A model generated the notes under the pieces. It had not been told where the DNA came from. It searched no databases and saw nothing but the letters and a program-made list of their open reading frames with translations. A DNA stretch of 47,730 nt from Candidatus Omnitrophota bacterium (lineage in GTDB: Bacteria; Omnitrophota; Gorgyraeia; Gygaellales; JAMWCP01). The stretch spans positions 1-47,730 of the forward strand of contig JAMWCN010000001.1 of the NCBI GenBank assembly GCA_023819505.1, read 5' to 3'. The position numbers and the translations under genes were made by a program. Below are positions 7,968 through 39,996 of the stretch, in pieces; the stretch's first letter is position 1, and every line of letters starts with the position of its first letter.

Positions 7968-7969
7968 AT

Positions 7970-9032: not shown

Positions 9033-9444
9033 CTAAAGAGAGAAATATCAGCAAATCCTTTTCAAATTTTTCCTTTAACTCTTTTAAAAAATCATCTCTA
9101 TCTAAAGTTTCCTCTAAAATTTTATCTTTAAAAATTTTTTTTATCTTAGGGATCTTACTATCATCTATTTTATCTAAAAGCTCCCTAAATATATCTTCGA
9201 TTATCTCTCTCTTTGTATCTAAAATAATCATTTTTCTCTCCAGATTTGCTTTGGTAAGTATAAGGTTTATTTCCTCTTTTAATTCTCTTTCTTTTTCTTC
9301 TAAAAGCTCCTGTCTCTTTTGCTGTGCTTTCAGCCTAGATTCCTCCAAAATCTTCTCTTTTTGAATTTTAGCTTCCTCTTTTATCTGCTTAGCTTTCTCT
9401 TCTGCTTCTTTTAGAATAGAATTTATGATTTGATCTATCCCCAT
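9016..9444 (-). CDS. atpE: V/A-type ATPase subunit E (peripheral stalk), short (142 aa)
   Basis: Charged coiled-coil N-terminus IINSILKEAEEKAKQIKEEAK... Position after K. Confidence 0.7.
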   Translation of the reverse strand: MGIDQIINSILKEAEEKAKQIKEEAKIQKEKILEESRLKAQQKRQELLEEKERELKEEINLILTKANLERKMIILDTKREIIEDIFRELLDKIDDSKIPKIKKIFKDKILEETLDRDDFLKELKEKFEKDLLIFLSLDEKET

Positions 9445-9447
9445 ATC

Positions 9448-9918
9448 TTATAACTTTATCCCATTTAAGAGAAAGATAGTAATTACTAAACCTAAAACCG
9501 CATAAGTCTCAACAAGCGCTCCATAGATTAAAGCACGCATACTTGCTTCAGGATGCTTTGCCGCTACAGCTATCCCTGCGGTGCAGACTTTTCCCTGATG
9601 GATCGCAGAGACCAAACCAGAGATAGTGATAGGTAAACATGCACCTAAAATCTGAAGACCCTGCATAAGAGAAGGAAAGACAACCTCTCCTTTTAATAGT
9701 CCCAACTTTAAAATCACCAAGAACCCTGCCAAAAAACCATATACACCTTGTGTTCCAGGTAAAGCTACTAAAAGAAGCATATTACCAAATTTATCCGGAT
9801 CTTCTGATAAAACTCCGTTGGCAGCCTGACCCGCCAGACCCACTCCGATACATGAACCGATTCCACATAAGAATGCTACTATCCCTGCAGCTAATATAGA
9901 GATAAGTAATCCTTCCAT
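9448..9918 (-). CDS. atpK: V/A-type ATPase proteolipid subunit K (4-TM double hairpin)
   Basis: 156 aa. ALPGTQGVYGF, SAIHQGKV and GALVETYAVLG align with the Enterococcus hirae NtpK motifs LLPGTQGLYGF, SGIAQGKV and AAMVETYAILG. Confidence 0.92.
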   Translation of the reverse strand: MEGLLISILAAGIVAFLCGIGSCIGVGLAGQAANGVLSEDPDKFGNMLLLVALPGTQGVYGFLAGFLVILKLGLLKGEVVFPSLMQGLQILGACLPITISGLVSAIHQGKVCTAGIAVAAKHPEASMRALIYGALVETYAVLGLVITIFLLNGIKL

Positions 9919-9921
9919 ATC

Positions 9922-11901: not shown

Positions 11902-11903
11902 AA

Positions 11904-12218
11904 TTAGCTTTTAATTTTTTCTAAGAGAAATTCTACCGCTTTCTCTTTCAAAGGTTTGATTCTTTCTTTTAAACTTGTAGAGACTTCTTCTGCATCCTTA
12001 ATAATTCTTTTGGCTTCCTCTTCTGCTTCGGCAAGTTTTTTTTCTCTTAAAATAGAAAATTCTTCTTCTAAATTTTGTTTTACTTCCTCCATCATTTTTA
12101 AAGATAAATTTTCTGCTTCCTTAATAATTCGTTTAGCTTCTCTTTCAGCTTCCTCTATAAGTAAGTCTGCTTTCTTTTCTGCTTCTTTTATCCTTTCTAC
12201 TACTTCTTTTATATTCAT
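11904..12218 (-). CDS. V/A-type ATPase small coiled-coil stalk subunit (H/G-like)
   Basis: 104 aa Glu/Lys-rich coiled coil (VERIKEAEKKADLLIEEAEREAKRII...). First gene of the ATPase block. Its ATG overlaps the pyrF TGA (ATGA at 12215..12218). Confidence 0.65.
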   Translation of the reverse strand: MNIKEVVERIKEAEKKADLLIEEAEREAKRIIKEAENLSLKMMEEVKQNLEEEFSILREKKLAEAEEEAKRIIKDAEEVSTSLKERIKPLKEKAVEFLLEKIKS

Positions 12219-12889
12219 CTTAATTCTCTAAGGATGCACTTTAATTTTTTTAAAGGGTCTTTTGCCTCAAGGATCGGTCTACCTACAACGATGTAATCTA
12301 TACCCTTATCTCTTGCCTCTTTAGGGGTAGCGGTTCTTTTCTGGTCATCAGCTTCGATTTTCTCCATCCTTATGCCTGGACTAACTATAAGAAGATTTTT
12401 TCTTAATTTAAGAGGTAGGAAATCTAGATCTTTAACTGAAATAACTATCCCATCTAAACCTACCTCTTTAGCTACCTTTACCAATCTTATTAACTTAGAA
12501 GTACCATTTTTTCTTTGACTGGTCAGAAGTGTTACACCAAAAATCAAAGGTCTTTTTATTTTTAGTTTTTTGGCTTCTTGAAAAACTATTTTTTTTAGCT
12601 TAATTAAAGCATCTTTCCCTGCTTGGATATGCACGGTAAACATAAAGATATTCATCTTACAGATAAGTTTTGCTGTCTCAACCATGGTATGGGGAATATC
12701 AAATAGTTTTAAATCTAAAAATACTTTAATCCCTTTCTTTACTAACCAATTTACTACCAAAGGGCCTTGGGCAGTAAAGAGCTGTAATCCTACTTTAAAG
12801 ATTTTAACTTTAGGATAAAGAATTTTTACTATCTCTTTTGCTCTTTTAGATGAATCCACATCTAAAGCAACGATAAGTTTTGTCTTCAT
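12215..12889 (-). CDS. pyrF: orotidine 5'-phosphate decarboxylase
   Basis: LIVALDV..., FLDLKLFDIPHTM (DxKxxDIPxT motif), GVTLLTS, VVGRPI. Confidence 0.93.
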   Translation of the reverse strand: MKTKLIVALDVDSSKRAKEIVKILYPKVKIFKVGLQLFTAQGPLVVNWLVKKGIKVFLDLKLFDIPHTMVETAKLICKMNIFMFTVHIQAGKDALIKLKKIVFQEAKKLKIKRPLIFGVTLLTSQRKNGTSKLIRLVKVAKEVGLDGIVISVKDLDFLPLKLRKNLLIVSPGIRMEKIEADDQKRTATPKEARDKGIDYIVVGRPILEAKDPLKKLKCILRELR

Positions 12890-13794
12890 ACCTTTAAAGT
12901 TCCGATCAATTCTTTTATATCCTTAAATCTGTTGGCTTCTAAATAACCCTTTATCCCTTCGATAATCTCTAAAGAAGCTTTTGGATTAACGAAGTTGGCA
13001 GTCCCTATGCCAACAGCAGTTGCTCCGCATAAAATAAATTCAATTGCATCCTTAGCATCCATTATTCCTCCCATACCAATTATGGGAATCTTTACTCTTT
13101 GATAAACTTGCCAAACCGCTCTTAAAGCAATCGGTTTTATCGCTGGACCACTTAATCCACCAGTTACCGTAGAAAGCATCGGTTTTCTTGTTTGGATATC
13201 AACTGCCATCGCTGATACAGTATTAATTAAAGAAACAGAATCTGCGCCTGCTTTCTCTGCTGCTAATGCTATTTCGCTAATATCTGTAACATTGGGAGAA
13301 AGCTTAACAATTAAAGTCTGAGAACTAATCTTACGTAATTTCTTTACTACATTATAAGTAGCATCTTTATCCTGAGAAATTAATTTCTTTATCCTTAAAT
13401 TAGGACAGGATAGATTAACCTCTATCGTTTTTAATTCTTTGATCTTAGCTAACTCTTTAGCCAAAATGAATAGCTCTTCTGGTTCATCTATACTGGTAAT
13501 ACTTACAATAATAGGTACACCCCATTTTAAAAACTTAACTAAATCTCTTTTTAAAAATAGATCTAAGCCAGGGTTCTCTAAACCGATAGAATTAAGTAAA
13601 CCCGATGGTGTCTCACATGTTCTAGGTGGGGGATTGCCCAAATTTGGCTTCAAAGTGATAGTTTTAGTAACAAGAGCACCTATCTTTTTAAAATCTAAAA
13701 AATATTTTAATTCTTCCGAAAATGTCCCTGAACAGAGTATAACTGGATTTTTTAAATTTAGCTTACCTATCTTTACAGATAAATTAACCCTCAT
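12886..13794 (-). CDS. pyrD: dihydroorotate dehydrogenase, class 1B catalytic subunit
   Basis: LKNPVILCSGTF, GLLNSIGLENPG, NLSCPN (class 1 Cys base), GGLSGPAIKPIALR, IGMGGI. Confidence 0.94.
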   Translation of the reverse strand: MRVNLSVKIGKLNLKNPVILCSGTFSEELKYFLDFKKIGALVTKTITLKPNLGNPPPRTCETPSGLLNSIGLENPGLDLFLKRDLVKFLKWGVPIIVSITSIDEPEELFILAKELAKIKELKTIEVNLSCPNLRIKKLISQDKDATYNVVKKLRKISSQTLIVKLSPNVTDISEIALAAEKAGADSVSLINTVSAMAVDIQTRKPMLSTVTGGLSGPAIKPIALRAVWQVYQRVKIPIIGMGGIMDAKDAIEFILCGATAVGIGTANFVNPKASLEIIEGIKGYLEANRFKDIKELIGTLKV

Positions 13795-14150
13795 TTAGTT
13801 AGAATCATCTTTATACTAATAAATAAAAGGTATATCCCAAATAACTGTTTTAAAGTTCTATCAGCCAAATTCTGAATCAGATGTGCTCCTAAAAATCCGC
13901 CGAAGAGAAATCCTAAGCAGATAAAACCTGCAATAGTTAACTTTACATTTCCGCTGTAATAGTATCTTAAAGCAGCCAACAGCCCAATGGGAGGAATCAT
14001 AATTGCTAAAGTAGTGCCTTGAGCTTGATGTTGGGTTAATCCAAATAGATAAACTAAAGCAGGGATAAGAATCGTTCCTCCCCCAATACCAAAACATCCG
14101 CTAAAGATCCCTGCAACCAAACCCAAAATTATATAAGAGATATAAATCAT
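13791..14150 (-). CDS. half-size TSUP (TauE/SafE, DUF81) family membrane protein, 119 aa, about 4 TM
   Basis: GLVAGIFSGCFGIGGGTILIPALVYLFGL and a hydrophobic profile with four segments. Start and stop overlap the neighbouring genes by 4 nt each. Confidence 0.65.
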   Translation of the reverse strand: MIYISYIILGLVAGIFSGCFGIGGGTILIPALVYLFGLTQHQAQGTTLAIMIPPIGLLAALRYYYSGNVKLTIAGFICLGFLFGGFLGAHLIQNLADRTLKQLFGIYLLFISIKMILTK

Positions 14151-15322
14151 GATTCCTCCTTTTTAATTAAAAATAAAAATGGTAAAGAAATAATCTGCGT
14201 TATAATTGTGAATGTGATTATATAATTAAAAGAGAAACGATAAAGAAACCCCATAATACTTAAACTTAAAAAAATCCCTAATCCATAGAGACTATTAAAT
14301 ATTCCATAGGCTAGCCCTCTCTTCTCTATAGATACTAAATCCGCAACCTCTGCACGCATAATTGTTTCCTGAATTCCCATAATTATACCCCACAGTATTA
14401 TTGCAGTCAAAATAAACTTAGGATTAAAGGATAGGCCTAAAAAAACTAAAGGTATATTTAAAAAGGGAATAGATAAAAGAGAGATTAGACCTTTAAGATC
14501 ATAAAGTCTACCTGCAACTAAAGCAGTTAAGGCATCTATGCCCATACCTAGACCAAACCAGATAGAGATTATACTTTCGGAAAGTATATATCTACTTTTT
14601 AGATGGTAAGCAATCAATGGAAAGTTTAAAAATCCCATAACGGTAAACAAAGTGAAAAAACTATACCACCAAAATCTCAAAGGAAGCTTTCTATAAGATG
14701 TATCTTTCTGCCTTACCTCAGAGATAAAAGGTAAAGTATATCTTTTAAAAGCAAAATTTAAGACAAGAAGGCAAATTATTGCAGGTAAAAACAAAAATCC
14801 AAAACTTATCCGGTAATCCCTACTTAGAAAAAACAAAATGCCTACCAGAATCGGACCACTGATTGCACCGATTTGATCAAAAAATTCATGCAATCCGAAT
14901 GCTTTACCTCTACCAAATTCTTCTGTAACTGAGGAAATCAAAAGGTCTCTGGAAGGACTACGGATTGCTTTTCCTAAACGTTCAAAAATAACCAGAATAG
15001 AAGCGGCTTGCAAATTTTTTGTAAAAGCTAATAAAGGAATACTTAAAACTCCCAAACCGTACCCTAAAAAAGTCATCTGCCACCAACATTTAAATCTATC
15101 TGCAAACCAACCAAAAAAAATCCTTAAAGCCCAACCCAAAAACTCTGCAATACCAAAGATAAAACCGGTCATCAGAGAACTTGCTCCTAAATAGAAAAAG
15201 AAGGGACTCAAAACCCCCCTTGCTCCTTCATAAACCATATCCGCAAAAAGACTAACCAATCCTAAAATAATGATAAAATTTAAAGGCTTAAATTTTGCCT
15301 CCATTTTAAAAACTAGGCTCAA
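14147..15322 (-). CDS. MFS transporter
   Basis: 391 aa polytopic protein. ...GWFADRF..., ERLGKAIRSPSRDLLIS, RGKAFGLHEFFDQIGAISGP are MFS loop 2-3-like motifs. Confidence 0.75.
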   Translation of the reverse strand: MSLVFKMEAKFKPLNFIIILGLVSLFADMVYEGARGVLSPFFFYLGASSLMTGFIFGIAEFLGWALRIFFGWFADRFKCWWQMTFLGYGLGVLSIPLLAFTKNLQAASILVIFERLGKAIRSPSRDLLISSVTEEFGRGKAFGLHEFFDQIGAISGPILVGILFFLSRDYRISFGFLFLPAIICLLVLNFAFKRYTLPFISEVRQKDTSYRKLPLRFWWYSFFTLFTVMGFLNFPLIAYHLKSRYILSESIISIWFGLGMGIDALTALVAGRLYDLKGLISLLSIPFLNIPLVFLGLSFNPKFILTAIILWGIIMGIQETIMRAEVADLVSIEKRGLAYGIFNSLYGLGIFLSLSIMGFLYRFSFNYIITFTIITQIISLPFLFLIKKEES

Positions 15323-16445
15323 TACATAAAATTTTATATTTCTTAAAATCCTTTAAACCGCCTTTGATAAAACTTAAGTTTGTCAGATACTTATACTTAC
15401 ACCAAACCAAAAATTTTTTCTTTGGCTCCATACCAAAATTCCATTTTACGAATTGAAAACCAAAATAAATTGCTAAAATCAAAAAGACAAAACTAAATAC
15501 TCTCCAAAACAAAGTTTTTATAAATAAACTTAAAATTGCTAAAAAACCAAATATATGTAAAAGATGAAAATCTCCAATATAAATAAAACCTCTCAAGGGG
15601 AAAACAATAAATATAGAAGGTTTCTTTTTAAATATCTGTAAAACTATCTCCAAACCTCTCTTCTCTACATATTTTTTAATCAAGGGAGCGTGTGCCTGAC
15701 CGTAAGTCACCCAGACCTTTCTTAGCGATTTTAGATCTGCTCTGTGCATATGATCTACTTTAGCTAAAGGAGCAAAGTAGAACTTAAAACCCGCTTTTCT
15801 ATGTTGAAAACTTAAATCCATATCCTCTCCTGTAGGTAAATCCCAAAATTTTGCCTTAATTTTTTCCATAGCTGATTTACGGTAGGAAACATTACAGGTA
15901 CCAAAAAAATATGCACGGTGTCCAGCGATATCTACAGGACGAGGTTCTTTGGGAAAGGAGGGAAAGTATCCCTCTTGGATAAATCCATAACGCGGAGATA
16001 CCATATTGAATCTGAAATGTTGACACCAAGCCTCAACCAAATTATCTGGATCTACTTTTAAAGTAAAAACTTCTCCTCCTACTGCAGCGATCTGGGGATC
16101 ACGCTGGAAATGTTTAATCATCTCTTTGATCCAATTTTTAGCCGGTGCACAATCAGCATCAGTAAAGAATAAAAATTCTCCTTTTGCTACCTCTAAAGCT
16201 TTATTCCTTGCATATCCTGGAGATGGACAGTTTGGAATCTCTACCAATTTTATGAAAGGATAATTCTTCTGCCATTCTTTAATTATAGGTACTGTTCTAT
16301 CATTAGAACCTCCATCAGCAATTATCCATTCCCAAAATTCATGTGGCCAATCTACATCCAAAAGATATTTAAAAGTCTTTTCGATCGTGCGTTCAAAATT
16401 TTTCACCGGAACAATTATAGAAACAAAAGGTAACTTTTCTACCAT
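15306..16445 (-). CDS. family 2 glycosyltransferase with C-terminal TM segments
   Basis: VSIIVPVKN, IIADGGSNDRT, FFTDADC (DxD), GEDMDLS, then hydrophobic C-terminal helices. Confidence 0.8.
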   Translation of the reverse strand: MVEKLPFVSIIVPVKNFERTIEKTFKYLLDVDWPHEFWEWIIADGGSNDRTVPIIKEWQKNYPFIKLVEIPNCPSPGYARNKALEVAKGEFLFFTDADCAPAKNWIKEMIKHFQRDPQIAAVGGEVFTLKVDPDNLVEAWCQHFRFNMVSPRYGFIQEGYFPSFPKEPRPVDIAGHRAYFFGTCNVSYRKSAMEKIKAKFWDLPTGEDMDLSFQHRKAGFKFYFAPLAKVDHMHRADLKSLRKVWVTYGQAHAPLIKKYVEKRGLEIVLQIFKKKPSIFIVFPLRGFIYIGDFHLLHIFGFLAILSLFIKTLFWRVFSFVFLILAIYFGFQFVKWNFGMEPKKKFLVWCKYKYLTNLSFIKGGLKDFKKYKILCIEPSF

Positions 16446-17254
16446 ACCAATTCCTCCGCTTTAAATACAGGTCCATCTTTACAGACCCTTTTATAACCAG
16501 TTTTTGTATTTACCACACAACCAAGGCATACTCCAATTCCGCAGGCCATATGTCCTTCTAAAGAAACTTCTGTGGGGATACTGTAGCTTTTGGAAATATC
16601 AATAACCTCTTTTAGCATAGGACCTGGACCACAGGCATAAATAGTTGATATTTGAGAGTTGATAGTTGATAGTAAATATTTTAATAAATCTGTAACCTTT
16701 CCTTTAAAACCATAAGAGCCATCATCGGTAGAGACCTCTACTTTACATCCCAACCTTTTAAAATCCTTTTCACATAAGAGCTCATTTTTTGTCTTTGCAC
16801 CCAATAAAACGAGGGGTTTATTTTGAATTTTGAATTTTGAATTTTGAAATAATTCTTCTGCCAGAAAAACAAAAGGAGCCACCCCTATCCCACCAGAAAC
16901 TAATATGGGGATTTGAAATTTAGATATTATTTCCTGATAAAAAAAGCCGTTTCCTAAAGGACCAATTACATCTATAGATTCATCTGTTTTTCTCCGGGAT
17001 AGAATCTCTGTACCTTTACCTATAACTTCGTAGAGGATCTCTATATTTTTCCCTTGAACACGATGGATACTAAAAGGTCTTCTTAATAGGGGCTGATAAT
17101 TATCCACAATTTTTATACTTACAAACTGACCAGGCAAAGCGTATTTAGCAATGGGAGGACAAAAGATAACCATTTTAAAATATTTATTTTTAATTTTTTT
17201 ATTTTCTACAACTCTGGAATTTGGAATTTGGAATTTGGAATTTATTTCTGACAT
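16439..17254 (-). CDS. pyrK: dihydroorotate dehydrogenase electron-transfer subunit (FAD/[2Fe-2S])
   Basis: PGQFVSIKI, RRPFSI, GGIGVAPF, STDDGSYGFKGKVTD, and the C-terminal cluster CGIGVCLGC...VCKDGPVF. Confidence 0.9.
   Translation of the reverse strand: MSEINSKFQIPNSRVVENKKIKNKYFKMVIFCPPIAKYALPGQFVSIKIVDNYQPLLRRPFSIHRVQGKNIEILYEVIGKGTEILSRRKTDESIDVIGPLGNGFFYQEIISKFQIPILVSGGIGVAPFVFLAEELFQNSKFKIQNKPLVLLGAKTKNELLCEKDFKRLGCKVEVSTDDGSYGFKGKVTDLLKYLLSTINSQISTIYACGPGPMLKEVIDISKSYSIPTEVSLEGHMACGIGVCLGCVVNTKTGYKRVCKDGPVFKAEELVW
16643..16677. repeat. heptanucleotide tandem repeat AGTTGAT, 3 perfect plus 2 degenerate copies, inside pyrK
   Basis: agttgat atttgag agttgat agttgat agtaaat read directly. 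Encodes LLSTINSQISTI on the minus strand. Confidence 0.85.
16821..16848. repeat. perfect heptanucleotide tandem repeat (TTTTGAA)x4 inside pyrK
   Basis: ttttgaa x4 read directly. Encodes QNSKFKIQNK on the minus strand. Confidence 0.95.
17215..17243. repeat. perfect heptanucleotide tandem repeat (TGGAATT)x4 plus 1 nt at the pyrK 5' end / mutM stop
   Basis: tggaatt x4 read directly. On the coding strand this is AATTCCA x4, covering pyrK codons 4-13 (INSKFQIPNS). The mutM TAA (17244..17242) sits on the tract edge. Confidence 0.95.
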
Positions 17255-18104: not shown

Positions 18105-18503
18105 TTATTCTTCAGGAATTATCTTTACCCAGACTTCTCTTGTGCGTGGTCCATCACCTTCACACAAAAAAATTCCCTGCCAGCTCCCAAAACAGAGCTT
18201 GCCATCTTCAACAAATATAATCAAAGATGAACCAAAGATACTTGATTTTATATGACTGTCAGCATTTCCTTCAGTATGAGAATAACTTTTATCAGGTGGA
18301 ACTAATTTAGTCAGTGTCTGGGCGATATCTTCTCTTACTGAAGGATCGTAGTTCTCATTGATGGTAAGTCCAGCAGTTGTATGTGGGCAGAATAAAAAAC
18401 AGATCCCTTCTTTAATCTTACTCTTAGAGACTACTTCTTCAACCTTAGAGGTTATATCTATAAGCTCAATCCTTTTATTTGTTCTTAAGCTTATCCTTTC
18501 CAT
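18105..18503 (-). CDS. YjbQ/UPF0047 family protein (secondary thiamine-phosphate synthase-like)
   Basis: 132 aa. [32 protein letters not shown]. Confidence 0.8.
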
Positions 18504-21500
18504 ATCCTTTATTTTTAATTTTGTAGTGATAATTCTGTAAAGAATTTATCTTTAGATCTTTCTTAAGCAAACTCTCAATACCTTTTACTGTTGCTTGAGC
18601 TCCTGAGATAGTAGTGGTATAAGGGATATTGTATAAAATTACCTGCGATCTTATCTTAACTTCATCCTGGCGGGGAATTCTTCCTGAAGGAGTATTTATA
18701 ACTAATTGGATTTTACCATCCTTCATCAGATCTAAAACATTTGGTCTTCCTTCAGCAATCTTGGGTAAGACCTTCGCCTTTATACCATTTTCTTCTAATA
18801 CTTTGGCAGTTCCTGAAGTAGCAAAGAGATTAAAACCTAACTTTCTTAATTTTTGAGCTACTGGAACAATTTTCTCTTTATCACTATCCCTTACCGAAAT
18901 AAATACATTTCCCTTTTTAGGTAAGTTCTGTCCGGCAGCAAGTTGACTCTTTATATAGGCAGAACTAAAATCTTTATCTATACCCATCACCTCACCAGTA
19001 GACTTCATCTCTGGACCCAAAATTATATCTACTCCTGGAAAACGATTAAAGGGAAATACTGATTCTTTCACACTTGTATGTTCAGGAATGATCTCACAAG
19101 TAAAACCCAAATCCTTTAATTTTTTACCCAGCATCACCTTGGTAGCTAACTTTGCTAAAGGAACTCCTATTGCCTTAGAAACAAAAGGGATGGTTCTAGA
19201 GGCACGCGGATTAACCTCTAAGACATAGACCTCATTATCCTTTACTGCATATTGAACATTCATAAGACCCACAATATTTAACTCCTTTGCTAATTTATAG
19301 GTTGCCTGACGGATCTTTTCTAATATCACTTTAGATAAACTATAAGGTGGTAAAGCCATAGCTGAGTCTCCGGAATGAATCCCTGCATACTCAATATGTT
19401 CCATAATTCCACCAACAACAAAGGTTTCTCCATCTCCAATCATATCCACATCTACCTCAATAGCCTCCTCTAAGAATTTATCAATTAAAATCGGATGTTC
19501 TCCAGAAAATTCTTTTGCTTCTTTAATAAATCTTTCTAAAGTTTCTTCATCATAAACAATCTCCATTGCTCTTCCACCTAAAACATAGGAAGGTCTGACT
19601 AAAACCGGATAGCCAACTTCGTTAGCAATCTTTTTTGCCTCTTTGAATGTAAAGGCAGTATCATTTTGGGGTTGTAGAAGGCCTAATTTATGTAAGATCT
19701 GTTTAAAACGCTGGCGATCCTCAGCAATATCAATATCTTCCGCAGTAGTACCTAAAAGCTTTACCCCTGCCTTCTTTAATGGTAAAGCCAAATTTATAGG
19801 GGTCTGGCCTCCAAATTGTACAATTACACCAAGAGGTTTTTCTACCTCTACCACATTTAAGATATCCTCTAAGGTTAAGGGTTCAAAATATAATCTATCT
19901 GATGTATCGTAATCCGTAGAGACAGTTTCAGGATTGCAGTTTATCATAATACTTTCAATTCCTTCTTCTTTTAAAGCATAAGCAGCATGACAACAGCAGT
20001 AATCAAACTCTATCCCTTGGCCAATGCGGTTTGGGCCTCCTCCTAAGATAATTACTTTTTTATTCTTTGTCGCTCTTGATTCTTGTTTGGTTTCATAGGT
20101 AGAATAAAAATAGGGTCTTTCCGCAAGGAATTCTCCGGAACAGGTATCCACAGGTTTAAAGACAGGGATAATTTTATGTTTTTTACGAAAAGCCCGAATA
20201 TCGTTTTCTGTAGAATTAAGTAAATAAGACAGCTGTCTATCTGAAAAACCATCCTGCTTTGCTTTTTTAAGGAGCTCTAAAGGAATCCTTATCTTATCTT
20301 CTTGCTCTTTGTTTTTGAATTTCTTTATCTCTTCTTCCAATTCTACCAACTGTTTTATATTATCAATAAACCATCTATCAATCTTAGAAAGTCTGTAGAT
20401 CTCCTCTGTCGATAAGCCTGCCTTTAATCCATAACGGATATAAAAGATCCTTTCATCATTAGGGATGCGAATTTTATCTTTAATTATCTTTAAAAGGCCA
20501 TTATCAGGATTCTTTAACATCTCATCAGTAATCTTATCTTTACCATCACATCCTAAACCAAAACGTCCGATCTCTTGAGAACGTATCCCTTTTTGCAGTG
20601 CCTCCTTAAAATTTCTACCAATAGACATCGCCTCTCCTACTGCCTTCATGGAGGTGTTGATTATCCGCTCTGCAGAAGGAAATTTCTCAAAGGTAAATCT
20701 ACAGATTTTAAATACACAGTAATCTACTGTGGGCTCAAAAAAAGCAAAAGTTTTGCCTGTAACCTGATTTAAGACCTCAGGAAGAGTTAAACCTACTGCT
20801 AATTTTGTAGCTATCCTGGCAATAGGAAAACCTGTCGCTTTTGAGGCTAAAGCAGAAGAACGACTTAAGCGCGGATTTACTTCAATAATCACTATCTCTC
20901 CATTCTCTGGATTTTGGGCAAACTGGATATTTGCACCTCCTCCAGTTATACCAACTTTACGGATTATTCTTTTACAGAGATTAACAAAATTATTATATTC
21001 TTCTTTGGTTAAAGTTTGAGATGGAGCAACTACCATACTATCTCCAGTATGAACTCCCATAGGATCAACATTTTCCATAGAAGTAACGATAATTACATTA
21101 TCAACGCAGTCCCGCATCACCTCAAATTCAATCTCCTTCCAACCTAAAACTGACTGCTCCACCAATACCTGATGGACAGGTGAGGTCTCCAGACCCTTAA
21201 TGAGAAATTTTTCTAATTCCTCTCTATTGTAGGCAATCGAACCTCCGCTTCCACCTAAACAGTAGGCTGGTCTTAAAATTAAAGGAAAACCAATCTTTAA
21301 ACCTATATTCATACCTTCCTCTACACTATGCGCGATCCCACTTTTAGGAACCTCTATTCCAATCTCCTGCATTGCCTTTTTAAAAAGTTCTCTATCTTCA
21401 GCACAGGAGATAGCAGATACAGATGCACCGATAGATTCTACTCCATATTTTTTTAAGATACCTTCTTTCATTAAGAAGAAGGCTAAGTTTAAACCTGTCT

Positions 21501-21777
21501 GACCACCCAAAGTAGGTAAGATTGCATCAGGACGCTCTTTCTTAATAATCTTGGAAACAAACTCTACAGTTAAAGGTTCAATATAGGTAACATCAGCCAT
21601 CCCTGGATCAGTCATAATCGTAGCAGGATTGGAATTTACCAAAATCGTAAAATAACCTTCTTCTTTTAAGGCCTTGCAGGCCTGAGATCCTGAATAATCA
21701 AACTCGCAGGCCTGGCCAATAATAATAGGACCAGAACCGATTATAAGGATCTTTTTGATATCTTTACGCTTGGGCAT
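18475..21777 (-). CDS. carB: carbamoyl-phosphate synthase large subunit
   Basis: 1100 aa. Duplicated ATP-grasp halves ([21 protein letters not shown]... and [21 protein letters not shown]...), plus a C-terminal MGS-like domain. Confidence 0.97.
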
Positions 21778-21784
21778 AGAGAAT

Positions 21785-22849
21785 TTAACTCCTTTCTATT
21801 TCTTTAACAAACCTCTCAAAAACAGGATGTGTTTCTTCAAATCCTGGACTTAAAGGCAGATACTGAACACCAATAAATTTATATTTTTTACTTTCTATCT
21901 CTTCAGCTGTATTATCGTTTAGATTAAAGGCAGTTATCTTTATATCTTTATCTAAAGAATCCTTATCAATAGTATAGCTATGATTCTGGGTGGTAATTTC
22001 TCCTTTTAATGAATCAATTCTTTTTATGGGATAATTTAGGCCATGATGACCTAATTTCATCCTTAATAATTTTGCTCCTGAAGCCCTTGCTAAAACCTGA
22101 CAACCAGTAGAGATACCCATTAGAGGAATTTTTCCTAAAAGAGATTTTAAATTTTCGATTACTTTTTCTAAGCCTATATCTTCCTCTGGACCTGAAGAAA
22201 TAATTAAACCCTGGGGTTTTAATTTTAAAATTTCTTGTGGTTTAGTATCAAAAGGTAGAATCACCAAAGAAAATCCTAATTTTTTCAATTGATTTAAAAT
22301 ACCATTGGTTATTCCTAAATCTAAGATGGCTATTTTCCCAGACCCTCCTTTAATAATCTTTGGTTTCTTTACTGAAATCTCAGGTAGAATACTTCTTTTG
22401 GGTTTCTTGCGAAATTCTTTAATTTTAGAAACTAGATACTTTTTATTAAAACTATCTGTAGAGATAATCCCCCAAAGAGTACCTTTTTCTCTTAGATGAA
22501 CTATCAGTGAACGCGTATCCACGCTTGTTAAGATAAAAAATTTATTTCTTTTTGCGAATTCCTCTAAGCTTAAATTTGCCTGCCAGTTAGAATATATCCG
22601 TGAAAGTTCCTTAATCACCAGGGCCTTAACCCAAACCCTGCTTGACTCATTAAACTTATCATTACAGCCATAATTACCAATCAAAGGATAGGTTAAAACC
22701 AGAATTTTATCTGCATTAGCAGGATCCGTGATAAATTCCTGATAACCTACTACCCCTGTATTAAAGACTAATTCACCCACAGTTTCTATCTTACTTTTTG
22801 CCTCGCCAAAGAAGTAGTTGCCGTCTTCTAACACCAGAATTGCTTTCAA
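21785..22849 (-). CDS. carA: carbamoyl-phosphate synthase small subunit homologue with degenerate glutaminase active site
   Basis: TTG start 5 nt after AGGAGG. N-terminal domain is canonical ([32 protein letters not shown]). The amidotransferase motifs read GISTGCQ and VQYLPLSPG instead of GICLGHQ and FQGHPEASPG. Confidence 0.88.
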
Positions 22850-23309
22850 AATTACCTCCTTTTAAAATCTGTTTTATTTTTATAATTAGCTCTTCAAGGG
22901 AATTTACTTTAATTACTCCCTTTATATCCCAGGATCTAAAACTAATTACAGGAATACCAAATTGTAAACAATAAGCAATCTCAGAAAGAGTTCCATATTC
23001 ACCAGGAAGAGCTACCACCACATCCGCAGTCTTTACTACCAAGACATTTCTTGCCAAACCCAATCCAGAAGGAATTACAATATCTACATAAGGATTGGCA
23101 TCATTTTTATCATAACCTGGTATAATTCCTATAGTTACACCACCTTTAGATTTAAATCCTTTACAAACCGCCTTCATTACTCCACCTAAACCGCCGCAAA
23201 CTAAAAAATCCGCCACTTTTGCCAAATTTTTGCCTAATTCTTGAGCTAATTTCTCCACTTCTTTTGAACAATTTCTTCCTCCTACTATCCCCACAATCCA
23301 CTTACGCAT
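22791..23309 (-). CDS. TIGR00725 / LOG-like (SLOG Rossmann) family protein
   Basis: IVGIVGG..., LVCGGLGGVMKAVCKG, LPGEYGTLSEI (PGGxGTxxE-like). The 3' end overlaps carA by 59 nt. Confidence 0.65.
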   Translation of the reverse strand: MRKWIVGIVGGRNCSKEVEKLAQELGKNLAKVADFLVCGGLGGVMKAVCKGFKSKGGVTIGIIPGYDKNDANPYVDIVIPSGLGLARNVLVVKTADVVVALPGEYGTLSEIAYCLQFGIPVISFRSWDIKGVIKVNSLEELIIKIKQILKGGNFESNSGVRRRQLLLWRGKK

Positions 23310-23444: not shown

Positions 23445-24683
23445 CTAAAACAAACTCAATTGCTTATCCTCTTTTGTGTCTTTCTCTTCATCACCAAATA
23501 TAGAAATTCTCCCATATTCACCATCAAAACCAGGCTTTATATTTATTTTTCCTTTACGCATCCTAATAATTCCTTCTGCTATTTTCGAAGGTAAACTTTT
23601 AATTAAATCTTCTTCTGAAACCTTAATTAAAATTTCAAATTCGCTGCCAAACTTCGCTACAAAACTTCGATAATCCCTTTCTACCGAAAGAGCACCTTTG
23701 GCAATACCTTTTGCTTCAGCAATAATCTCATCTAGAGGAATTAAATTTTTAAATGGTATAGCATCTTGGGGAACAAAACCTTGGGGTCTATCCGCAAGCT
23801 GTTCTACTCTATTCATCACTCCCACAGTTACAGGCCTATTACATTTTGGGCATATACCTTTATGCTCCTTAGTCTCTTGAGGTGACCACCTTATCCCACA
23901 AAGTCTATGTCCATCAAAATGGTATTTTCCTTCTTCAGGGAAAAATTCAATTGTATATAAAAATCTCTCTCTGTCCTTTGTCTTTAGAACCTGGAGGATA
24001 GTTTTATAATCCAATTCACAGTTAAAAACATTTGCTTCTCTACCAATCCTCTGTGGAGAATGACTATCAGAGTTTGAGATTAAAGTAATTCTATCTAAAC
24101 TACTTAAACGCCAATTCATTTTAGGATCGCTAGATAGACCTGTTTCACAGGCAAATATTTTAGAACTCTGCTCTTCAAAACAATCCTCTAATTTATCAAA
24201 TCCCGACATAGAACCGAATAGACTAAACCAAGGAGTCCAGATATGGCTGGGTATCAAAATACAATTCTCATCGATATCAAAAATAATCCTAGCTAATTCT
24301 GATGAATCTATACCTAAAATTGGTCTACCGTCGGAGGAGAGATTTCCATAGCGTGATAAAGTATCATTTATTCTATCTACAGTTTTAAAAGAAGGAGAAA
24401 ATATAATGTTGTGTATACGATAGGTTCTTCCTTTTTTAGAATAGATACTGGAAATTTCCGCAGTCAAAATAAAATAGGTATCTTTAAATTTAAAAAGACC
24501 GTTTCCTAAATCCTCTAAATTCTTCTTTAACTCTTCCAACCAAAGATGGTGGGTAAAATCTCCTGTTCCTACAAGCGCGATCCCTTTAAGGTATGCCCAT
24601 TCAGCGATGTGGTTCAAATCCATATCAGGTGATGTTGCTCGACTGTATTTTGAATGGATATGAAAATCAGCGATAAATTCCAT
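23445..24683 (-). CDS. endonuclease Q-like PHP phosphoesterase with Zn ribbon (COG1379/TIGR00375)
   Basis: FIADFHIHSKYSRA, VGTGDFTHHLW, IPSHIWTPW, SNSDSHSPQRIGREANVF, Zn ribbon CPKCNRPVTVGVMNRVEQL. Confidence 0.7.
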   Translation of the reverse strand: MEFIADFHIHSKYSRATSPDMDLNHIAEWAYLKGIALVGTGDFTHHLWLEELKKNLEDLGNGLFKFKDTYFILTAEISSIYSKKGRTYRIHNIIFSPSFKTVDRINDTLSRYGNLSSDGRPILGIDSSELARIIFDIDENCILIPSHIWTPWFSLFGSMSGFDKLEDCFEEQSSKIFACETGLSSDPKMNWRLSSLDRITLISNSDSHSPQRIGREANVFNCELDYKTILQVLKTKDRERFLYTIEFFPEEGKYHFDGHRLCGIRWSPQETKEHKGICPKCNRPVTVGVMNRVEQLADRPQGFVPQDAIPFKNLIPLDEIIAEAKGIAKGALSVERDYRSFVAKFGSEFEILIKVSEEDLIKSLPSKIAEGIIRMRKGKINIKPGFDGEYGRISIFGDEEKDTKEDKQLSLF

Positions 24684-25137: not shown

Positions 25138-26395
25138 TTAAAAAGGATAAATAATTTTACCTTTATAGATTGTATACTCAACCTTTCCTTTTAAACGCAT
25201 CCCTAAAAATGCAGAATTTTTAGAAAGGCTTAAAAAATCATCTTTTTTTACCACCCATTCTTTGGAAGGATCCAATATTATCAATTCCGCAGGCTTACCT
25301 ATTGCCAAAGTTCCTTTATCTATTTTTAAAATCTTACTAGGATTGATACAGAAAAGTTCTACTAATTTACACCAGTCAATCAGACCAGGTTCTACTAGAT
25401 ATGTGATTGCTACTGCCAGTTCTGTCTCTAACCCAATTGTTCCGAATTCAGCATTTTCAAACTCAACCTCTTTCTCATGTTCGGTATGGGGTGCATGGTC
25501 TGAAGCGATACAGTCAATGATACCTTCTTTTAAAGCCTCTTTAATAGCTAAAAGATCCTCTTTTTTTCTCAAAGGAGGATTTACTTTTTTGTTAGTATCG
25601 AAATTTAAAAGTTCTTCCTCCGTCAAAGAGAAATAATGGGGAGCGGTATCGCAGGTAACTCTTATACCTTCTTTTTTAGCTTTAGCGATCAGATCCACCG
25701 ATTCTTTACAACTTACATGGGTGATATGGATAGGTGCATTTATCTTCTTAGATAATTTTATATCCCTCTCTACCCTTCTATACTCTGCTTCCTTAGGAAT
25801 ACCTCTTAACCCTAAACGTGTAGAGATAACCCCTAAATTTACCATCCCTTTTGAAGAGAGACTTTTATCTTCACAATGAAGGAGCAAAAGTAGATCTTTT
25901 TCTTTTGCCTCCTGCATCGCTTTAAGAAGCAAATTTTCATCATCTACAGATGAACCATCATCGGTGATGGCTACAACCCCTTCTTTTTTTAAAGCTTCAA
26001 AATCTACTAAAACTTTTCCTTCTCTTCTTAAAGTAATAGTAGAGGCGATTAATACATCTATTCGGGCTGTCCTTTTAATCCTTTCTTTTAATAATCTTAC
26101 CGCTTCTGGAGAATCTATGGCAGGATCAGTATTAGGCATAACTAAGATTGTGGTTATTCCCCCTTTGCTGGCAGCTTCTGTTCCAGTAAGAATTGTCTCT
26201 TTGTCTTCTCTACCCGGCTCTCTTAGATGCACATGTAAATCTATTAGAGCAGGCATAACTATTCTATCTTTGGCGGAAATAATATTATCTACATTTTCTT
26301 CTATTTTTTTATTTATTTTTTTAATGATGCCTTCCTCAATTAAAATATCTGCTTCTCCTATCAAATTATTAACTGGATCAACGATATAACCTTCT

Positions 26396-26412
<17 letters not shown>
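25138..26412 (-). CDS. pyrC: dihydroorotase
   Basis: [27 protein letters not shown]. Confidence 0.94.
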
Positions 26413-27882
<1,470 letters not shown>

Positions 27883-31310: not shown

Positions 31311-32249
31311 TTATACATATTCAATAGTACTTGGTGGTTTTGGGGTGATATCGTAAAGAACTTTTACTACCGAAGGTATCTCAGTGGTAATTCTTTTCTG
31401 TATCCGCATCAATTTATTAAAATTGATTCTAGAAGGTTTTGCTCTCAAAGCATCCTCTGAATCTACACATCTTATCGCAATTATATCTCCAAAGGACCTT
31501 TTTCCTTTAGATAAACCTGTAGCTTTATCAGAAAACAAGACTGCAAAAGCTTGAAATTTCTTTATATTTTTTAGTTCCTCCTCTACGATTTTAGTTGCTT
31601 TTCTAATTATCTCTACCTTTTGGGGGGTTACTTCCCCGATTATCCTTGTAGCTAAACCCGGGCCAGGAAAAGGCATACGAGCATAGATAGAAGGAGGCAG
31701 ACCCAGTTCCTTTGCTACCTTTCTTACCTGAGGCTTAAATAGATCCTTTAAAGGTTCAATGATCTTTAGCCCAAATTTTTCCGGTAAAATCCCAATCTGC
31801 TCTAAAACATTATGTTGAGTCTTTATACCTTTTTTTGTCTCAATAATATCTGCAGCGATCGTTCCTTGGATAAGAAATTTTGCTCTGTATTTTTTTACTG
31901 CTTCTCCTAAAACTTCATAAAAGGTCTGACGGAATTTTTTTCTTTTCTCTTCAGGATCAATTATCCCTTTTAAATTTTTAAAAAAATATTTTGCCTTATT
32001 TAAAATAATCAGATCTATCCCTAAATTTTTTAAGATATCACGCACAAACTGAGATTCATCCTGACGCATCAGGCCATCATCGATAAAAATAACCTTTAGC
32101 TTATCTCTTAAAACCCGATGCACTAAAACCGTAGCAGTAGTAGAATCTACCCCTCCAGAGGTAGCAGAGATAGCTTTTTGACCATTAAGGATGGGTTTTA
32201 ATTCTCTTATCTTTTCTTCTATAAATTTTTTAACATTAAATTTTTTCAT
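31311..32249 (-). CDS. guaA: GMP synthase ATP-pyrophosphatase subunit only (GuaA C-terminal half / archaeal GuaAB-like)
   Basis: 312 aa. SATSGGVDSTTA PP-loop, FLIQGTIAADIIE, PFPGPGLATRIIGEVT, C-terminal ...DITPKPPSTIEYV. No N-terminal class I amidotransferase domain. Confidence 0.85.
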   Translation of the reverse strand: MKKFNVKKFIEEKIRELKPILNGQKAISATSGGVDSTTATVLVHRVLRDKLKVIFIDDGLMRQDESQFVRDILKNLGIDLIILNKAKYFFKNLKGIIDPEEKRKKFRQTFYEVLGEAVKKYRAKFLIQGTIAADIIETKKGIKTQHNVLEQIGILPEKFGLKIIEPLKDLFKPQVRKVAKELGLPPSIYARMPFPGPGLATRIIGEVTPQKVEIIRKATKIVEEELKNIKKFQAFAVLFSDKATGLSKGKRSFGDIIAIRCVDSEDALRAKPSRINFNKLMRIQKRITTEIPSVVKVLYDITPKPPSTIEYV

Positions 32250-37448: not shown

Positions 37449-37451
37449 AGT

Positions 37452-39993: not shown

Positions 39994-39996
39994 GAT

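What the first reader, a model, noticed from the sequence alone, without database searches (positions are those of the whole stretch)
21785..22849. CarA has lost the entire Cys-His-Glu glutaminase triad: predicted glutaminase-dead small subunit and ammonia-dependent CPSase
Seen in sequence: the ORF aligns end to end with CarA and its N-terminal CarB-docking domain looks normal. The class I amidotransferase nucleophile elbow reads [13 protein letters not shown], where E. coli CarA (as I recall it) has PVFGICLGHQLLA. That is Cys269 -> Ser247, codon TCT at 22111..22109. The C-terminal motif reads [12 protein letters not shown] where E. coli has FSFQGHPEASPG. That is His353 -> Leu331 (CTG at 21859..21857) and Glu355 -> Leu333. 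NGPGDP is also eroded to SGPEED. I re-read the DNA at both sites and the frame is continuous, so this is not a frameshift artefact within the window. Established knowledge: the triad is required for glutamine hydrolysis. E. coli C269S CPS keeps only NH3-dependent activity, and the same Cys->Ser change marks ammonia-dependent vertebrate CPS I. Inference: the small subunit is kept as a structural or allosteric partner, and this CPSase uses free ammonia. The GATase-less GMP synthase at 31311..32249 fits the same theme, whereas glmS keeps its Cys2 nucleophile.
Basis: partly seen in the sequence, partly recalled or inferred. Interest (0 to 1): 0.7.

Follow-up and report, generated by a model that had tools for sequence, protein, structure and literature searches.

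The report
Glutaminase-dead CarA, likely ammonia-dependent CPS
This Omnitrophota bacterium's carbamoyl-phosphate synthetase has a small subunit that has lost its glutamine-splitting active site while its large subunit has matching changes in the internal ammonia tunnel, which points to an unrecognised bacterial class of this enzyme that probably uses free ammonia, as human CPS1 does.

Summary
ORF 21785..22849(-) is a full-length CarA. It scores 346.5 bits on TIGR01368 (cut-off 307) and its model superposes on E. coli CarA with TM 0.90. Cys269 is Ser247, His353 is Leu331, and Glu355 is removed by a one-residue deletion. The glutamine-binding loop NGPGDP reads SGPEED.

It is not an artefact. An independent NCBI Omnitrophica fragment is 100% identical over the region, and 118 of the 120 closest homologues (57-67% identity) lack the Cys.

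The losses concentrate on residues I recall as glutamine-site and tunnel residues. The rest of the pseudo-glutaminase domain stays strongly conserved, and many of the replacement residues are nearly invariant.

The gene sits 7 nt upstream of carB, at the position a canonical Omnitrophota carA occupies in the same pyr operon.

The partner CarB changes too. The invariant tunnel-gate Cys232 is Thr, and T249, D258, Q262, R265 and P360 are also replaced. This held in 12/12 CarB proteins paired with Cys-less CarA and 0/43 canonical ones.

C269S, L270T and a bulky residue at G293 parallel human CPS1.

Best reading: a bacterial, two-subunit, CPS-I-like ammonia-dependent CPS. [quoted passage not shown]

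The parts
21785..22849 (-). carA*: CPS small subunit with an intact N-terminal CarB-docking domain and a class I GATase-fold domain lacking the Cys-His-Glu triad
   Evidence: AlphaFold model pLDDT 88.2, TM 0.90 to E. coli CarA 1a9x_B.
22854..22860 (-). Shine-Dalgarno AGGAGGT, 4 nt upstream of the TTG start of carA*
   Evidence: Read directly from the sequence. The N-terminus [10 protein letters not shown] aligns with homologue N-termini.
22109..22111 (-). Ser247 codon (TCT) at the nucleophile-elbow position of E. coli Cys269. The next residue, Thr248, replaces Leu270.
   Evidence: In the clade, column 269 is S100/A17/C2/G1 and column 270 is T98/C12/S4/A4.
22178..22195 (-). SGPEED loop replacing NGPGDP, the loop I recall as forming the oxyanion hole and glutamine-binding site. 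Gly243 is Glu222 and Pro245 is Asp224.
   Evidence: E243 is in 119/120 and D245 in 120/120 of the clade. G243 and P245 are in 73/73 canonical CarAs.
21842..21865 (-). QYLPLSPG loop. His353 is Leu331 (CTG 21857..21859). A one-residue deletion removes Glu355. Pro358 and Gly359 are kept.
22037..22039 (-). Leu271 at the position of E. coli Gly293, the position where Gln318 blocks the ancestral tunnel in human CPS1
   Evidence: canonical G/A/S/C in 70/73, clade V/L in 116/120. PMC4655335 gives the human Gln318 equivalence.
21839..21841 (-). Phe337 at the position of E. coli Pro360, which I recall as part of the tunnel wall at the small/large subunit interface
   Evidence: P in 73/73 canonical, F in 109/120 of the clade.
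18475..21777 (-). carB, full-length large subunit (1100 aa), starting 7 nt after the carA* stop. It carries the variant tunnel and interface signature C173-T232-V249-K258-N262-V265-C(=Ec360).
21082..21084 (-). CarB Thr232 codon (ACT) replacing the invariant ammonia-tunnel gate Cys232
   Evidence: C in 43/43 CarBs next to canonical CarA, T in 12/12 next to Cys-less CarA. PMC4655335 names the gate as human Cys648/Ala667/Ala729.
20983..20985 (-). CarB Val265 codon (GTT) replacing Arg265, on the 258-265 stretch. I recall Arg265 as part of the tunnel wall facing the small subunit.
   Evidence: R in 76/77 of C232-type CarBs, never R in 43 T/V232-type CarBs.
22791..23309 (-). LDcluster4/TIGR00725 (SLOG/LOG-like Rossmann) gene overlapping the carA* start by 59 nt. 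Tightly linked to carA*-carB in the core clade. Role unknown.
   Evidence: Contexts.
25138..27876 (-). pyrR-pyrB-pyrC upstream part of the same pyrimidine gene cluster
   Evidence: Same order in L016 (canonical carA) and L081/L084/L085.
12215..17254 (-). Downstream pyrimidine genes pyrK (16439..17254), pyrD (12886..13794) and pyrF (12215..12889), with unrelated genes between them

Best explanation
carA* encodes a pseudo-glutaminase. It is a CPS small subunit that still folds like CarA and, by inference, still docks on CarB, but probably cannot hydrolyse glutamine.

The CarA*-CarB enzyme therefore most likely makes carbamoyl phosphate from free ammonia, bicarbonate and 2 ATP. That would make it a two-subunit bacterial counterpart of vertebrate CPS I.

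The small subunit is retained because it stabilises or activates CarB and forms part of the ammonia path. That path has been rebuilt:
- The old glutamine pocket is filled or re-wired (GPGDP to GPEED, S47A, K202T, G313S).
- The small-subunit tunnel is narrowed (G293 to V/L).
- The interface wall (small-subunit P360F; CarB D258, Q262, R265) and the CarB gate (C232T, T249V) have changed together.

Shown here: loss of the triad and glutamine-site residues; clade-wide fixation with strong conservation of the rest; operon position; co-variation in CarB.

Inferred: loss of glutaminase activity (very likely); use of free NH3 as the physiological nitrogen donor (likely); the route by which NH3 enters (speculative).
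For: 1. The triad is absent and the sequence is verified by an independent assembly.
2. Of 81 positions at least 95% conserved in 73 canonical CarAs, the clade keeps 59 and loses 22. The lost set includes C269, H353 and E355, plus S47, K202, G243-D244-P245, G313, M36 and P360, which I recall as glutamine-site or tunnel residues.
3. Columns 269 (S/A/G/C) and 353 (Y/I/L/C/N...) vary within the clade, so they are not catalytic. Many replacement residues are about 100% conserved (E243, D245, N48, K51, F69, Y295, E339). Mean pairwise identity is 0.70 in the GATase-like domain and 0.75 in the N-domain. The domain is constrained, not decaying.
4. The fold is intact: pLDDT 88, TM 0.90 to 1a9x_B.
5. 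carA* lies 7 nt upstream of a full-length carB. It sits in the same pyrR-pyrB-pyrC-...-carA-carB position as the canonical carA of Omnitrophota locus L016.
6. CarB co-variation: C232T in 12/12 CarBs paired with Cys-less CarA and 0/43 paired with canonical CarA. Database CarBs split into TCTDQRP (74/77 of the C232 type) and a T/V232-V249 type with non-D258, non-Q262 and non-R265 in all 43 and non-P360 in 42 of 43.
7. Parallel with human CPS1: C269S, L270T and a bulky residue at G293 (human Ser294, Thr295, Gln318; PMC4655335).
8. The loss is specific to CarA. glmS keeps Cys2 (MCGI...). In L002, guaA and purF keep their nucleophiles.
9. From established knowledge: E. coli C269S (PDB 1C30 was the best PDB hit) and isolated CarB retain NH3-dependent synthesis. 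PMC8121099 cites Trotta 1971 for isolated CarB.
Against: - No enzyme assay was done.
- The rest of the genome is unseen, so a second canonical carA (or a carAB pair) could exist.
- E. coli-type CPS has poor affinity for NH3, so physiological NH3 dependence requires adaptations that I can only suggest.
- Gln273, Asn311 and His312 are retained, and new invariant acidic residues line the old pocket. That could mean the pocket still binds something.
- Residue roles for S47, K202, R265 and P360 rest partly on my recollection of the Raushel/Holden papers, which the library did not hold.
Confidence: 0.7

Rival explanations
1. Specialised paralogue. The genome also carries a canonical glutamine-dependent carA (or carAB) elsewhere. 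This pair would then be an auxiliary, high-ammonium or pyrimidine-specific isozyme, analogous to CarAB versus CarB2 in Bacteroides thetaiotaomicron.
For: B. thetaiotaomicron appears to switch between CarAB and an orphan CarB2 according to ammonium supply (PMC8121099). Some Omnitrophota and Planctomycetia loci carry two carB genes (L024, L014). Other Omnitrophota have canonical carA.
Against: carA* occupies exactly the operon slot of the canonical carA in L016. No second carA lies within +/-10 kb in any of the 12 loci. No WGS prefix appears in both the triad-less and the canonical Omnitrophota hits, although the scan was truncated at 600 rows. Even if this reading were true, this CarA would still be glutaminase-dead.
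Confidence: 0.12
2. Neofunctionalised pocket. The former glutamine site, now lined by invariant Glu243, Glu/Asp244, Asp245, Glu339, Lys51, Asn48, Tyr295, His312 and Gln273, binds a new ligand. It would act either as an allosteric sensor, or as an ammonium-capture or alternative-amide-hydrolysing site that still feeds the tunnel.
For: The replacement residues are about 100% conserved while the old catalytic columns drift. Gln273, Asn311, His312, Pro358 and Gly359 are retained.
Against: No nucleophile is conserved. Gly293 becomes Val/Leu, which suggests the old tunnel segment is narrowed. More distant members of the class (L086, L088, L089, L090) lack the GPEED signature and even the SPG loop, yet have the same CarB changes. 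The acidic pocket is therefore not needed for the class as a whole. Salt bridges that simply plug the pocket would explain the conservation equally well.
Confidence: 0.1
3. Third-subunit model. The LDcluster4/TIGR00725 protein encoded immediately upstream works with CarA*-CarB as a regulator or ligand carrier, or as the supplier of the nitrogen donor.
For: The gene overlaps the carA* start by 59 nt. It is directly upstream in 6/6 core-clade loci, including L083 where the flanking synteny is otherwise broken, and it is absent from the other 75 carA loci scanned at that point.
Against: Relatives are LOG-type nucleotide phosphoribohydrolases and a molybdenum-cofactor carrier protein, not amidases. 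Triad-less lineages L002, L003, L086, L088, L089 and L090 lack it (for L002/L003; gene calls in 66, 68, 77, 78 for the rest). A role in nucleotide metabolism would also explain its presence in a pyr cluster.
Confidence: 0.05
4. Decaying pseudogene or assembly artefact.
For: None beyond the missing catalytic residues.
Against: The ORF is uninterrupted with a good Shine-Dalgarno sequence. An independent assembly gives an identical sequence. There are at least 120 homologues with the same features. Pairwise identity in the domain is 70%. The structure model is confident.
Confidence: 0.02

Closest known systems
Vertebrate CPS I (human CPS1, PDB 5DOU/5DOT)
   Same: The glutaminase-like domain is retained but inactive. 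Cys269 is Ser and Leu270 is Thr (human Ser294-Thr295; here Ser247-Thr248). A bulky residue sits at the E. coli Gly293 position (human Gln318; here Leu271, Val in the clade). The nitrogen donor is, or here is predicted to be, free ammonia (PMC4655335).
   Different: CPS1 is one polypeptide and needs N-acetylglutamate. Here there are two genes, and any activator requirement is unknown. According to PMC4655335, only the catalytic Cys is replaced in CPS1 (the paper calls the triad 'incomplete'); here the Cys, His and Glu are all gone. CPS1 keeps the gate Cys (Cys648), whereas here it is Thr232. The origin is independent and bacterial: 31-32% identity to CPS1 in the structural alignment, against 34% to E. 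coli CarA.
E. coli CarAB (CPS II) and its C269S mutant (PDB 1C30)
   Same: Same two-subunit architecture and fold (TM 0.90). The CarB N-terminal half aligns end to end with E. coli CarB (543 bits). The C269S mutant was the best-scoring PDB sequence hit.
   Different: The wild-type E. coli enzyme is glutamine-dependent. The natural protein here also lacks His353, Glu355, S47, K202, G243 and G313, and its CarB differs at C232, T249, D258, Q262, R265 and P360.
Orphan CarB2 of Bacteroides thetaiotaomicron (proposed NH4+-dependent CPS)
   Same: A bacterial CPS proposed to use ammonium directly (PMC8121099).
   Different: CarB2 has no small subunit at all. Here a pseudo-glutaminase small subunit is kept and conserved. 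Whether CarB2 shares the T232 signature was not tested.
Archaeal ammonia-dependent carbamoyl-phosphate synthesis (Pyrococcus carbamate-kinase-like CPS; Methanobrevibacter smithii minimal CPS)
   Same: Prokaryotic carbamoyl-phosphate synthesis from free ammonia (cited in PMC8121099 and PMC6022934).
   Different: Those are a different fold (amino-acid kinase) or a single ATP-grasp unit with no CarA. Here the full CarA+CarB architecture is present.
Pseudo-amidotransferases in general (for example viral pseudo-GATs)
   Same: A class I GATase fold kept without its catalytic cysteine (PMC7605207, listed; abstract only, not read).
   Different: Those act in deamidation signalling with a cellular partner. 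Here the domain remains within its ancestral synthetase complex.

Membership tests
CarA / CPS small subunit (TIGR01368; PF00988 + PF00117) | N-terminal CPSase_sm_chain (CarB-docking) domain | tested here: met
   PF00988, E 2.1e-41, residues 5-129 covering profile 1-126/126.
CarA / CPS small subunit (TIGR01368; PF00988 + PF00117) | C-terminal class I GATase fold and a full-length score above the curated cut-off | tested here: met
   PF00117, E 2.3e-34. TIGR01368 346.5 bits against 307.35. TM 0.90 to 1a9x_B.
CarA / CPS small subunit (TIGR01368; PF00988 + PF00117) | Encoded next to and upstream of carB | tested here: met
   carB starts 7 nt after the carA* stop. Same arrangement in L001-L004, L081 and L083-L090 (in L087 only a 46-aa downstream fragment is seen, identity not checked).
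Glutamine-hydrolysing class I amidotransferase (functional class named in the NCBIfam annotation) | Nucleophile Cys in the G-x-C-x-G elbow (E. coli Cys269) | tested here: not met
   Ser247 (TCT). The clade has S/A/G in 118/120.
Glutamine-hydrolysing class I amidotransferase (functional class named in the NCBIfam annotation) | His-Glu of the triad (E. coli His353, Glu355) | tested here: not met
   Leu331, plus a one-residue deletion. Column 353 is variable in the clade.
Glutamine-hydrolysing class I amidotransferase (functional class named in the NCBIfam annotation) | Intact residues at positions recalled as oxyanion-hole and glutamine-binding (G241-P-G243, S47, G313, K202) | tested here: not met
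   G243E, S47A, G313S and K202T. All are invariant or nearly so in 73 canonical CarAs. Their structural roles are from memory of the Thoden/Raushel papers.
Glutamine-hydrolysing class I amidotransferase (functional class named in the NCBIfam annotation) | Glutaminase activity | not testable with these tools
   Needs an enzyme assay.
CPS I (ammonia-dependent, vertebrate type) | Catalytic Cys replaced; glutaminase-like domain retained | tested here: met
   Human Ser294 per PMC4655335.
CPS I (ammonia-dependent, vertebrate type) | Single polypeptide fusing the small and large moieties | tested here: not met
   Two separate ORFs.
CPS I (ammonia-dependent, vertebrate type) | Obligatory N-acetylglutamate activation | not testable with these tools
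   The allosteric-domain ligand cannot be inferred here.
CPS I (ammonia-dependent, vertebrate type) | Common descent with the metazoan CPS I/III lineage | tested here: not met
   The protein matches E. coli CarA better (E 1.8e-60) than CPS1 (E 2.6e-45). In the NJ tree its CarB groups with bacterial CarBs (CPS1 itself was not included). It works like CPS I but is not a member.
Canonical CarB (large subunit) | Two ATP-grasp synthetase halves plus oligomerisation and MGS-like allosteric domains | tested here: met
   1100 aa. The N-terminal half aligns with E. coli CarB residues 1-401 and also with 558-931.
Canonical CarB (large subunit) | Conserved signature T173-C232-T249-D258-Q262-R265-P360 (C232 is a documented ammonia-tunnel gate residue) | tested here: not met
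   The window has C-T-V-K-N-V-C. 74/77 C232-type database CarBs have TCTDQRP.
Orphan CarB2-type CPS (B. thetaiotaomicron) | No associated small subunit | tested here: not met
   carA* is present and conserved.

The most novel reading that the evidence does not exclude
CarA*-CarB belongs to a coherent, previously unrecognised class of bacterial CPS. The class is defined by a T232-type CarB paired with a Cys-less CarA. It is found in MAGs labelled Omnitrophota, Planctomycetota, Saganbacteria and Margulisiibacteriota. In it, the vestigial glutaminase pocket has been put to a new use rather than merely disabled. Possible new uses are an ammonium-capture or entry port, a site that releases NH3 from a donor other than glutamine, or a metabolite sensor. 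In the Omnitrophota core clade it may work together with the tightly linked LDcluster4 protein as a third component.
Probability: 0.12. Interest if true: 0.85.

Novelty: new variant of a known kind. Interest (0 to 1): 0.7.

Why it matters
A 2021 functional-genetics paper states that all bacterial CPSs examined so far are glutamine-dependent, and that prokaryotic ammonia-dependent CPS is confined to Archaea (PMC8121099).

This locus, and the class it belongs to, would be a natural bacterial counterpart of vertebrate CPS I that arose independently. It would provide:
- a second, independent case for studying how an amidotransferase gives up glutamine;
- a set of co-varying small- and large-subunit residues that mark the ammonia path;
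- a correction for genome annotation and metabolic models. These proteins pass the TIGR01368 cut-off and are named 'glutamine-hydrolyzing', so nitrogen budgets for Omnitrophota, for some MAGs labelled Planctomycetota or Margulisiibacteriota, and for some Akkermansia-like MAGs are probably wrong at this step.

It also suggests these anaerobes live where free ammonium is plentiful.

Tried and rejected
- Exact-sequence look-up of the window's CarA in the contig index found nothing, so the source genome could not be identified or walked.
It returned only four core-type loci plus many canonical ones, so co-occurrence of canonical and triad-less carA in one genome could not be tested.
- The supplement of the preprint reporting 176 complete Omnitrophota genomes holds no carA/carB (K01956/K01955) table.
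- The Fan et al. 2009 tunnel paper (PMC2748306) is not held, and a search for the P360A/H361A/R265A mutant names found nothing. The 'perforation' residues are therefore cited from memory only.
- Alternative nucleophile: rejected, because column 269 is Ala or Gly in 18/120. I judge the neighbouring Thr/Cys270 side chain unlikely to face the pocket, from general knowledge of nucleophile elbows.
- General loss of glutamine amidotransfer in the lineage: rejected. glmS, and guaA and purF in L002, keep their nucleophiles.
- Pseudogene or frameshift: rejected.
- The Rfam scan of the window found only tRNAs and no PyrR-binding element at gathering threshold.
- dN/dS was not attempted, because the closest full-length relative is only 67% identical and synonymous sites would be saturated.
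- The AlphaFold model confirms the fold, but the tools return no coordinates, so pocket and tunnel geometry could not be measured.
Full report
**1. What is in the sequence**

The ORF 21785..22849 on the minus strand encodes 354 aa. It starts at TTG (22849..22847), 4 nt downstream of AGGAGGT, and its N-terminus [10 protein letters not shown] matches homologue N-termini.

It is a CarA from end to end. Pfam gives CPSase_sm_chain (E 2e-41) and GATase (E 2e-34). NCBIfam TIGR01368 scores 346.5 bits against a cut-off of 307.35. The best PDB sequence match is the E. coli CPS small subunit. The top entry happens to be the C269S mutant 1C30.

An AlphaFold model (pLDDT 88.2, pTM 0.89) superposes on E. 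coli CarA with TM 0.90.

**2. The triad**

Alignment to E. coli CarA and to 73 canonical CarAs gives the following.
- Cys269 is Ser247 (TCT, 22109..22111).
- The canonical consensus VQYHPEASPGP aligns to [10 protein letters not shown]. His353 is therefore Leu331 (CTG, 21857..21859).
- A one-residue deletion removes Glu355.
- NGPGDP has become SGPEED (22178..22195).

An NCBI Omnitrophica fragment (P0024) is 100% identical across both motifs, so this is not an assembly error. The organism is a member of Candidatus Omnitrophota, judged from the source names of the nearest hits.

**3. The change is fixed in a lineage and the domain is still constrained**

All 120 closest database homologues (57-67% identity) lack the triad. 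Column 269 is S100/A17/G1/C2. Column 353 is a mix of Y/I/L/C/N. Glu355 is always deleted.

Of 81 positions that are at least 95% conserved in canonical CarA, the clade keeps 59 and loses 22. The lost set includes the triad itself, invariant positions I recall as glutamine-site residues, and positions I recall as tunnel or wall residues:

| Group | Changes |
|---|---|
| Triad | C269S/A, H353 variable, E355 deleted |
| Recalled glutamine site | S47A, K202T, G243E, D244E, P245D, G313S |
| Recalled tunnel or wall | M36V, P360F |
| Role not assigned | Y48N, Q51K, D69F, G339E, D362E and others |

The two old catalytic columns drift, which argues against any replacement nucleophile. Many of the replacement residues, in contrast, are nearly invariant: E243 in 119/120, D245 in 120/120, K51 in 120/120, F69 in 120/120, Y295 in 119/120 and E339 in 119/120.

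Mean pairwise identity inside the clade is 0.70 for the GATase-like domain and 0.75 for the N-domain. The ratio is 0.94, against 1.02 in canonical CarAs. So the domain is a conserved, remodelled module and not a decaying one.

Gln273, Asn311, His312, Pro358 and Gly359 are retained.

**4. Genomic position**

carB (18475..21777, 1100 aa) starts 7 nt after carA*.

The neighbourhood reads rsmI, fkbM, pyrR, pyrB, pyrC, Mut7-C, a TIGR00375-type gene, tRNA-Arg, an LDcluster4 gene, carA*, carB, yjbQ, fpg, pyrK..., pyrD, pyrF.

The canonical-triad Omnitrophota locus L016 has the order rsmI, pyrR, pyrB, pyrC, TIGR00375-type gene, carA, carB. carA* is therefore the positional orthologue of an ordinary carA.

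The same order, with carA*, recurs in L081, L084 and L085.

**5. The large subunit changes with it**

I compared the first 401 residues of CarB, where the ammonia-tunnel gate residues lie. The sample was 8 CarBs next to triad-less CarAs and 43 next to canonical CarAs.

Positions at least 90% conserved in the canonical set but consistently replaced in the triad-less set included C232T (43/43 C versus 8/8 T), R265V, D258, Q262, T173C and P360C.

Cys232 belongs to the Cys232/Ala251/Ala314 gate at the end of the ammonia tunnel. PMC4655335 names the human equivalents as Cys648/Ala667/Ala729.

Four more pairs from much more distant Cys-less CarAs show the same CarB changes. These are about 41-42% identical to the query for the two that came from the representatives search (L086 and L088). 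The other two are L089, labelled Saganbacteria, and L090, Planctomycetes SM23_65.

That makes 12/12 against 0/43, about 2e-12 ignoring phylogeny.

A database search with the CarB N-half splits the 120 best hits cleanly.
- 77 have C232, and 74 of them carry exactly T173-C232-T249-D258-Q262-R265-P360.
- 43 have T/V232 and V249. None has D258, Q262 or R265, and 42 of 43 lack P360.
- The second group is 73-89% identical to the query. It is labelled Omnitrophota, Planctomycetota, Saganbacteria and Margulisiibacteriota, among others.

In a neighbour-joining tree the CarBs paired with triad-less CarAs form one clade.

From memory of Kim & Raushel 2004, small-subunit P360 and H361 and large-subunit R265 form the tunnel wall at the subunit interface, and mutating them to Ala lets ammonia leak. 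Only the paper's title was confirmed here. In this clade P360 is Phe and R265 is Val.

**6. Parallels with vertebrate CPS I**

PMC4655335 attributes the glutamine-blindness of human CPS1 to Ser294 replacing the Cys. It notes that the residue corresponding to Thr295 matters in frog CPS1, and that Gln318, replacing E. coli Gly293, blocks the old tunnel.

Here the same three positions read as follows.
- Ser247 replaces the Cys.
- Thr248 replaces Leu270. It is T in 98/120 of the clade, and L/F/M in 73/73 canonical CarAs.
- Leu271 replaces Gly293. It is V/L in 116/120 of the clade, and a small residue in 70/73 canonical CarAs.

The resemblance is convergent. The protein is closer to bacterial CarA than to CPS1, and the two subunits are separate genes.

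**7. Interpretation**

The most economical reading is a glutaminase-dead small subunit, kept as a structural and tunnel-forming partner of a CPS that takes free ammonia. The ammonia route has been re-engineered in both subunits.

Loss of glutaminase activity is close to certain on sequence grounds. Ammonia as the physiological donor is likely but unmeasured. The entry route is speculation.

The loss is specific to CPS. glmS keeps Cys2. A related triad-less lineage (L002) keeps intact guaA and purF nucleophiles.

- The 312-aa GuaA (31311..32249) has only the ATP-pyrophosphatase part.
- L090 shows the same GATase-less guaA directly upstream of a Cys-less carA.
- L002 does not show this pairing.

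**8. How common, and is it known?**

Among the 150 nearest 50%-identity cluster representatives, 66 lack Cys269.

In a search seeded with an Akkermansia-like degenerate CarA, about half of the 120 hits had degenerate triads, and they are annotated as 'glutamine-hydrolyzing'. Loss of the triad in CarA is therefore recurrent and is mis-annotated.

Nine literature searches found no description of a bacterial triad-less CarA. PMC8121099 states that all bacterial CPSs so far are glutamine-dependent.

**9. Limits**

- The rest of the genome is unseen, so a second canonical carA cannot be excluded.
- There are no coordinates for tunnel geometry and no activity data.
- Some residue roles rest on my memory of papers not held in the library.

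**Verdict**

The finding is broader than reported: it is a distinct CarA*/CarB class rather than a single odd gene.

It is a new variant of a known kind. It works like CPS I but is not a member of that family. It is a member of the CarA family by sequence but fails the defining features of a glutamine-hydrolysing amidotransferase.

Noticed in passing
window 22791..23309 (-); also L001 9417..9935, L081 9472..9933, L083 499..1017, L084 6589..7107, L085 9467..9922: An LDcluster4/TIGR00725 (SLOG/LOG-like) gene sits directly upstream of carA*. It overlaps the carA* start by 59 nt in the window, L083 and L084. It is present in 6/6 core-clade loci, even where other synteny is broken, and in none of the other 75 carA loci scanned at that point. 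The nearest solved relatives are Thermotoga 1RCU and the Chlamydomonas molybdenum-cofactor carrier protein.
   Followed up: partly
window 31311..32249 (-); L090 3947..4882: guaA encodes only the ATP-pyrophosphatase half of GMP synthase (312 aa; TIGR00884 337.5 bits, just under the 338.75 cut-off). It is preceded by tRNA-Glu, with stop codons in the upstream frame. A Planctomycetes SM23_65 contig has the same 311-aa gene immediately upstream of a Cys-less carA. No separate GATase subunit is in the window.
   Followed up: partly
window about 37450..43800: Chromosomal origin region. dnaA (38656..39993), dnaN, gyrB and gyrA are on the minus strand; yidC, parA and parB are on the plus strand. GC skew changes sign and GC content drops to 26% around 40-42 kb.
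   Followed up: no
window 4248..12218 (-): A V/A-type ATPase operon (subunits D, B, A, C/AC39, K/c, I, G-like) lies next to pyrF and pyrD. The same linkage is seen in L081, L084 and L085.
   Followed up: no
L081 1..615 and 6822..9299; L085 6175..8652; compare window 23445..24683 and 32354..34783: Relatives carry inteins in gyrA (1263 aa against 809 aa here) and in the TIGR00375/MJ0043_C gene (825 aa against 412 aa here). The window's copies are intein-free.
   Followed up: no
L024 8194..11460 and 11642..14854; L014 8164.. and 11438..: A canonical-triad Omnitrophota locus and a Planctomycetia locus each carry a second full-length carB in tandem. The two second copies cluster together on a separate branch of the CarB tree.
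   Followed up: no
L080 9956..11158, and proteins P0271-P0389: Akkermansia-like CarAs fall into a canonical C-H-E set (60 of 120) and several degenerate sets (G/S at 269; Q/I/L at 353). In L080 the degenerate carA is not next to carB; purA follows it. All named ones are annotated as 'glutamine-hydrolyzing'.
   Followed up: partly
proteins P0390-P0509: One CarB has an intermediate signature, C173-C232-V249-A258-A262-I265-P360. It keeps the gate Cys but has the variant residues on the 258-265 stretch. It may be a transitional form between the two CarB classes.
   Followed up: no
window 1140..1751 (+): The ORF containing ribosomal protein S20 is 203 aa from its first TTG, but the S20 domain covers only residues 114-191. 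The true start is probably much further downstream.
   Followed up: no
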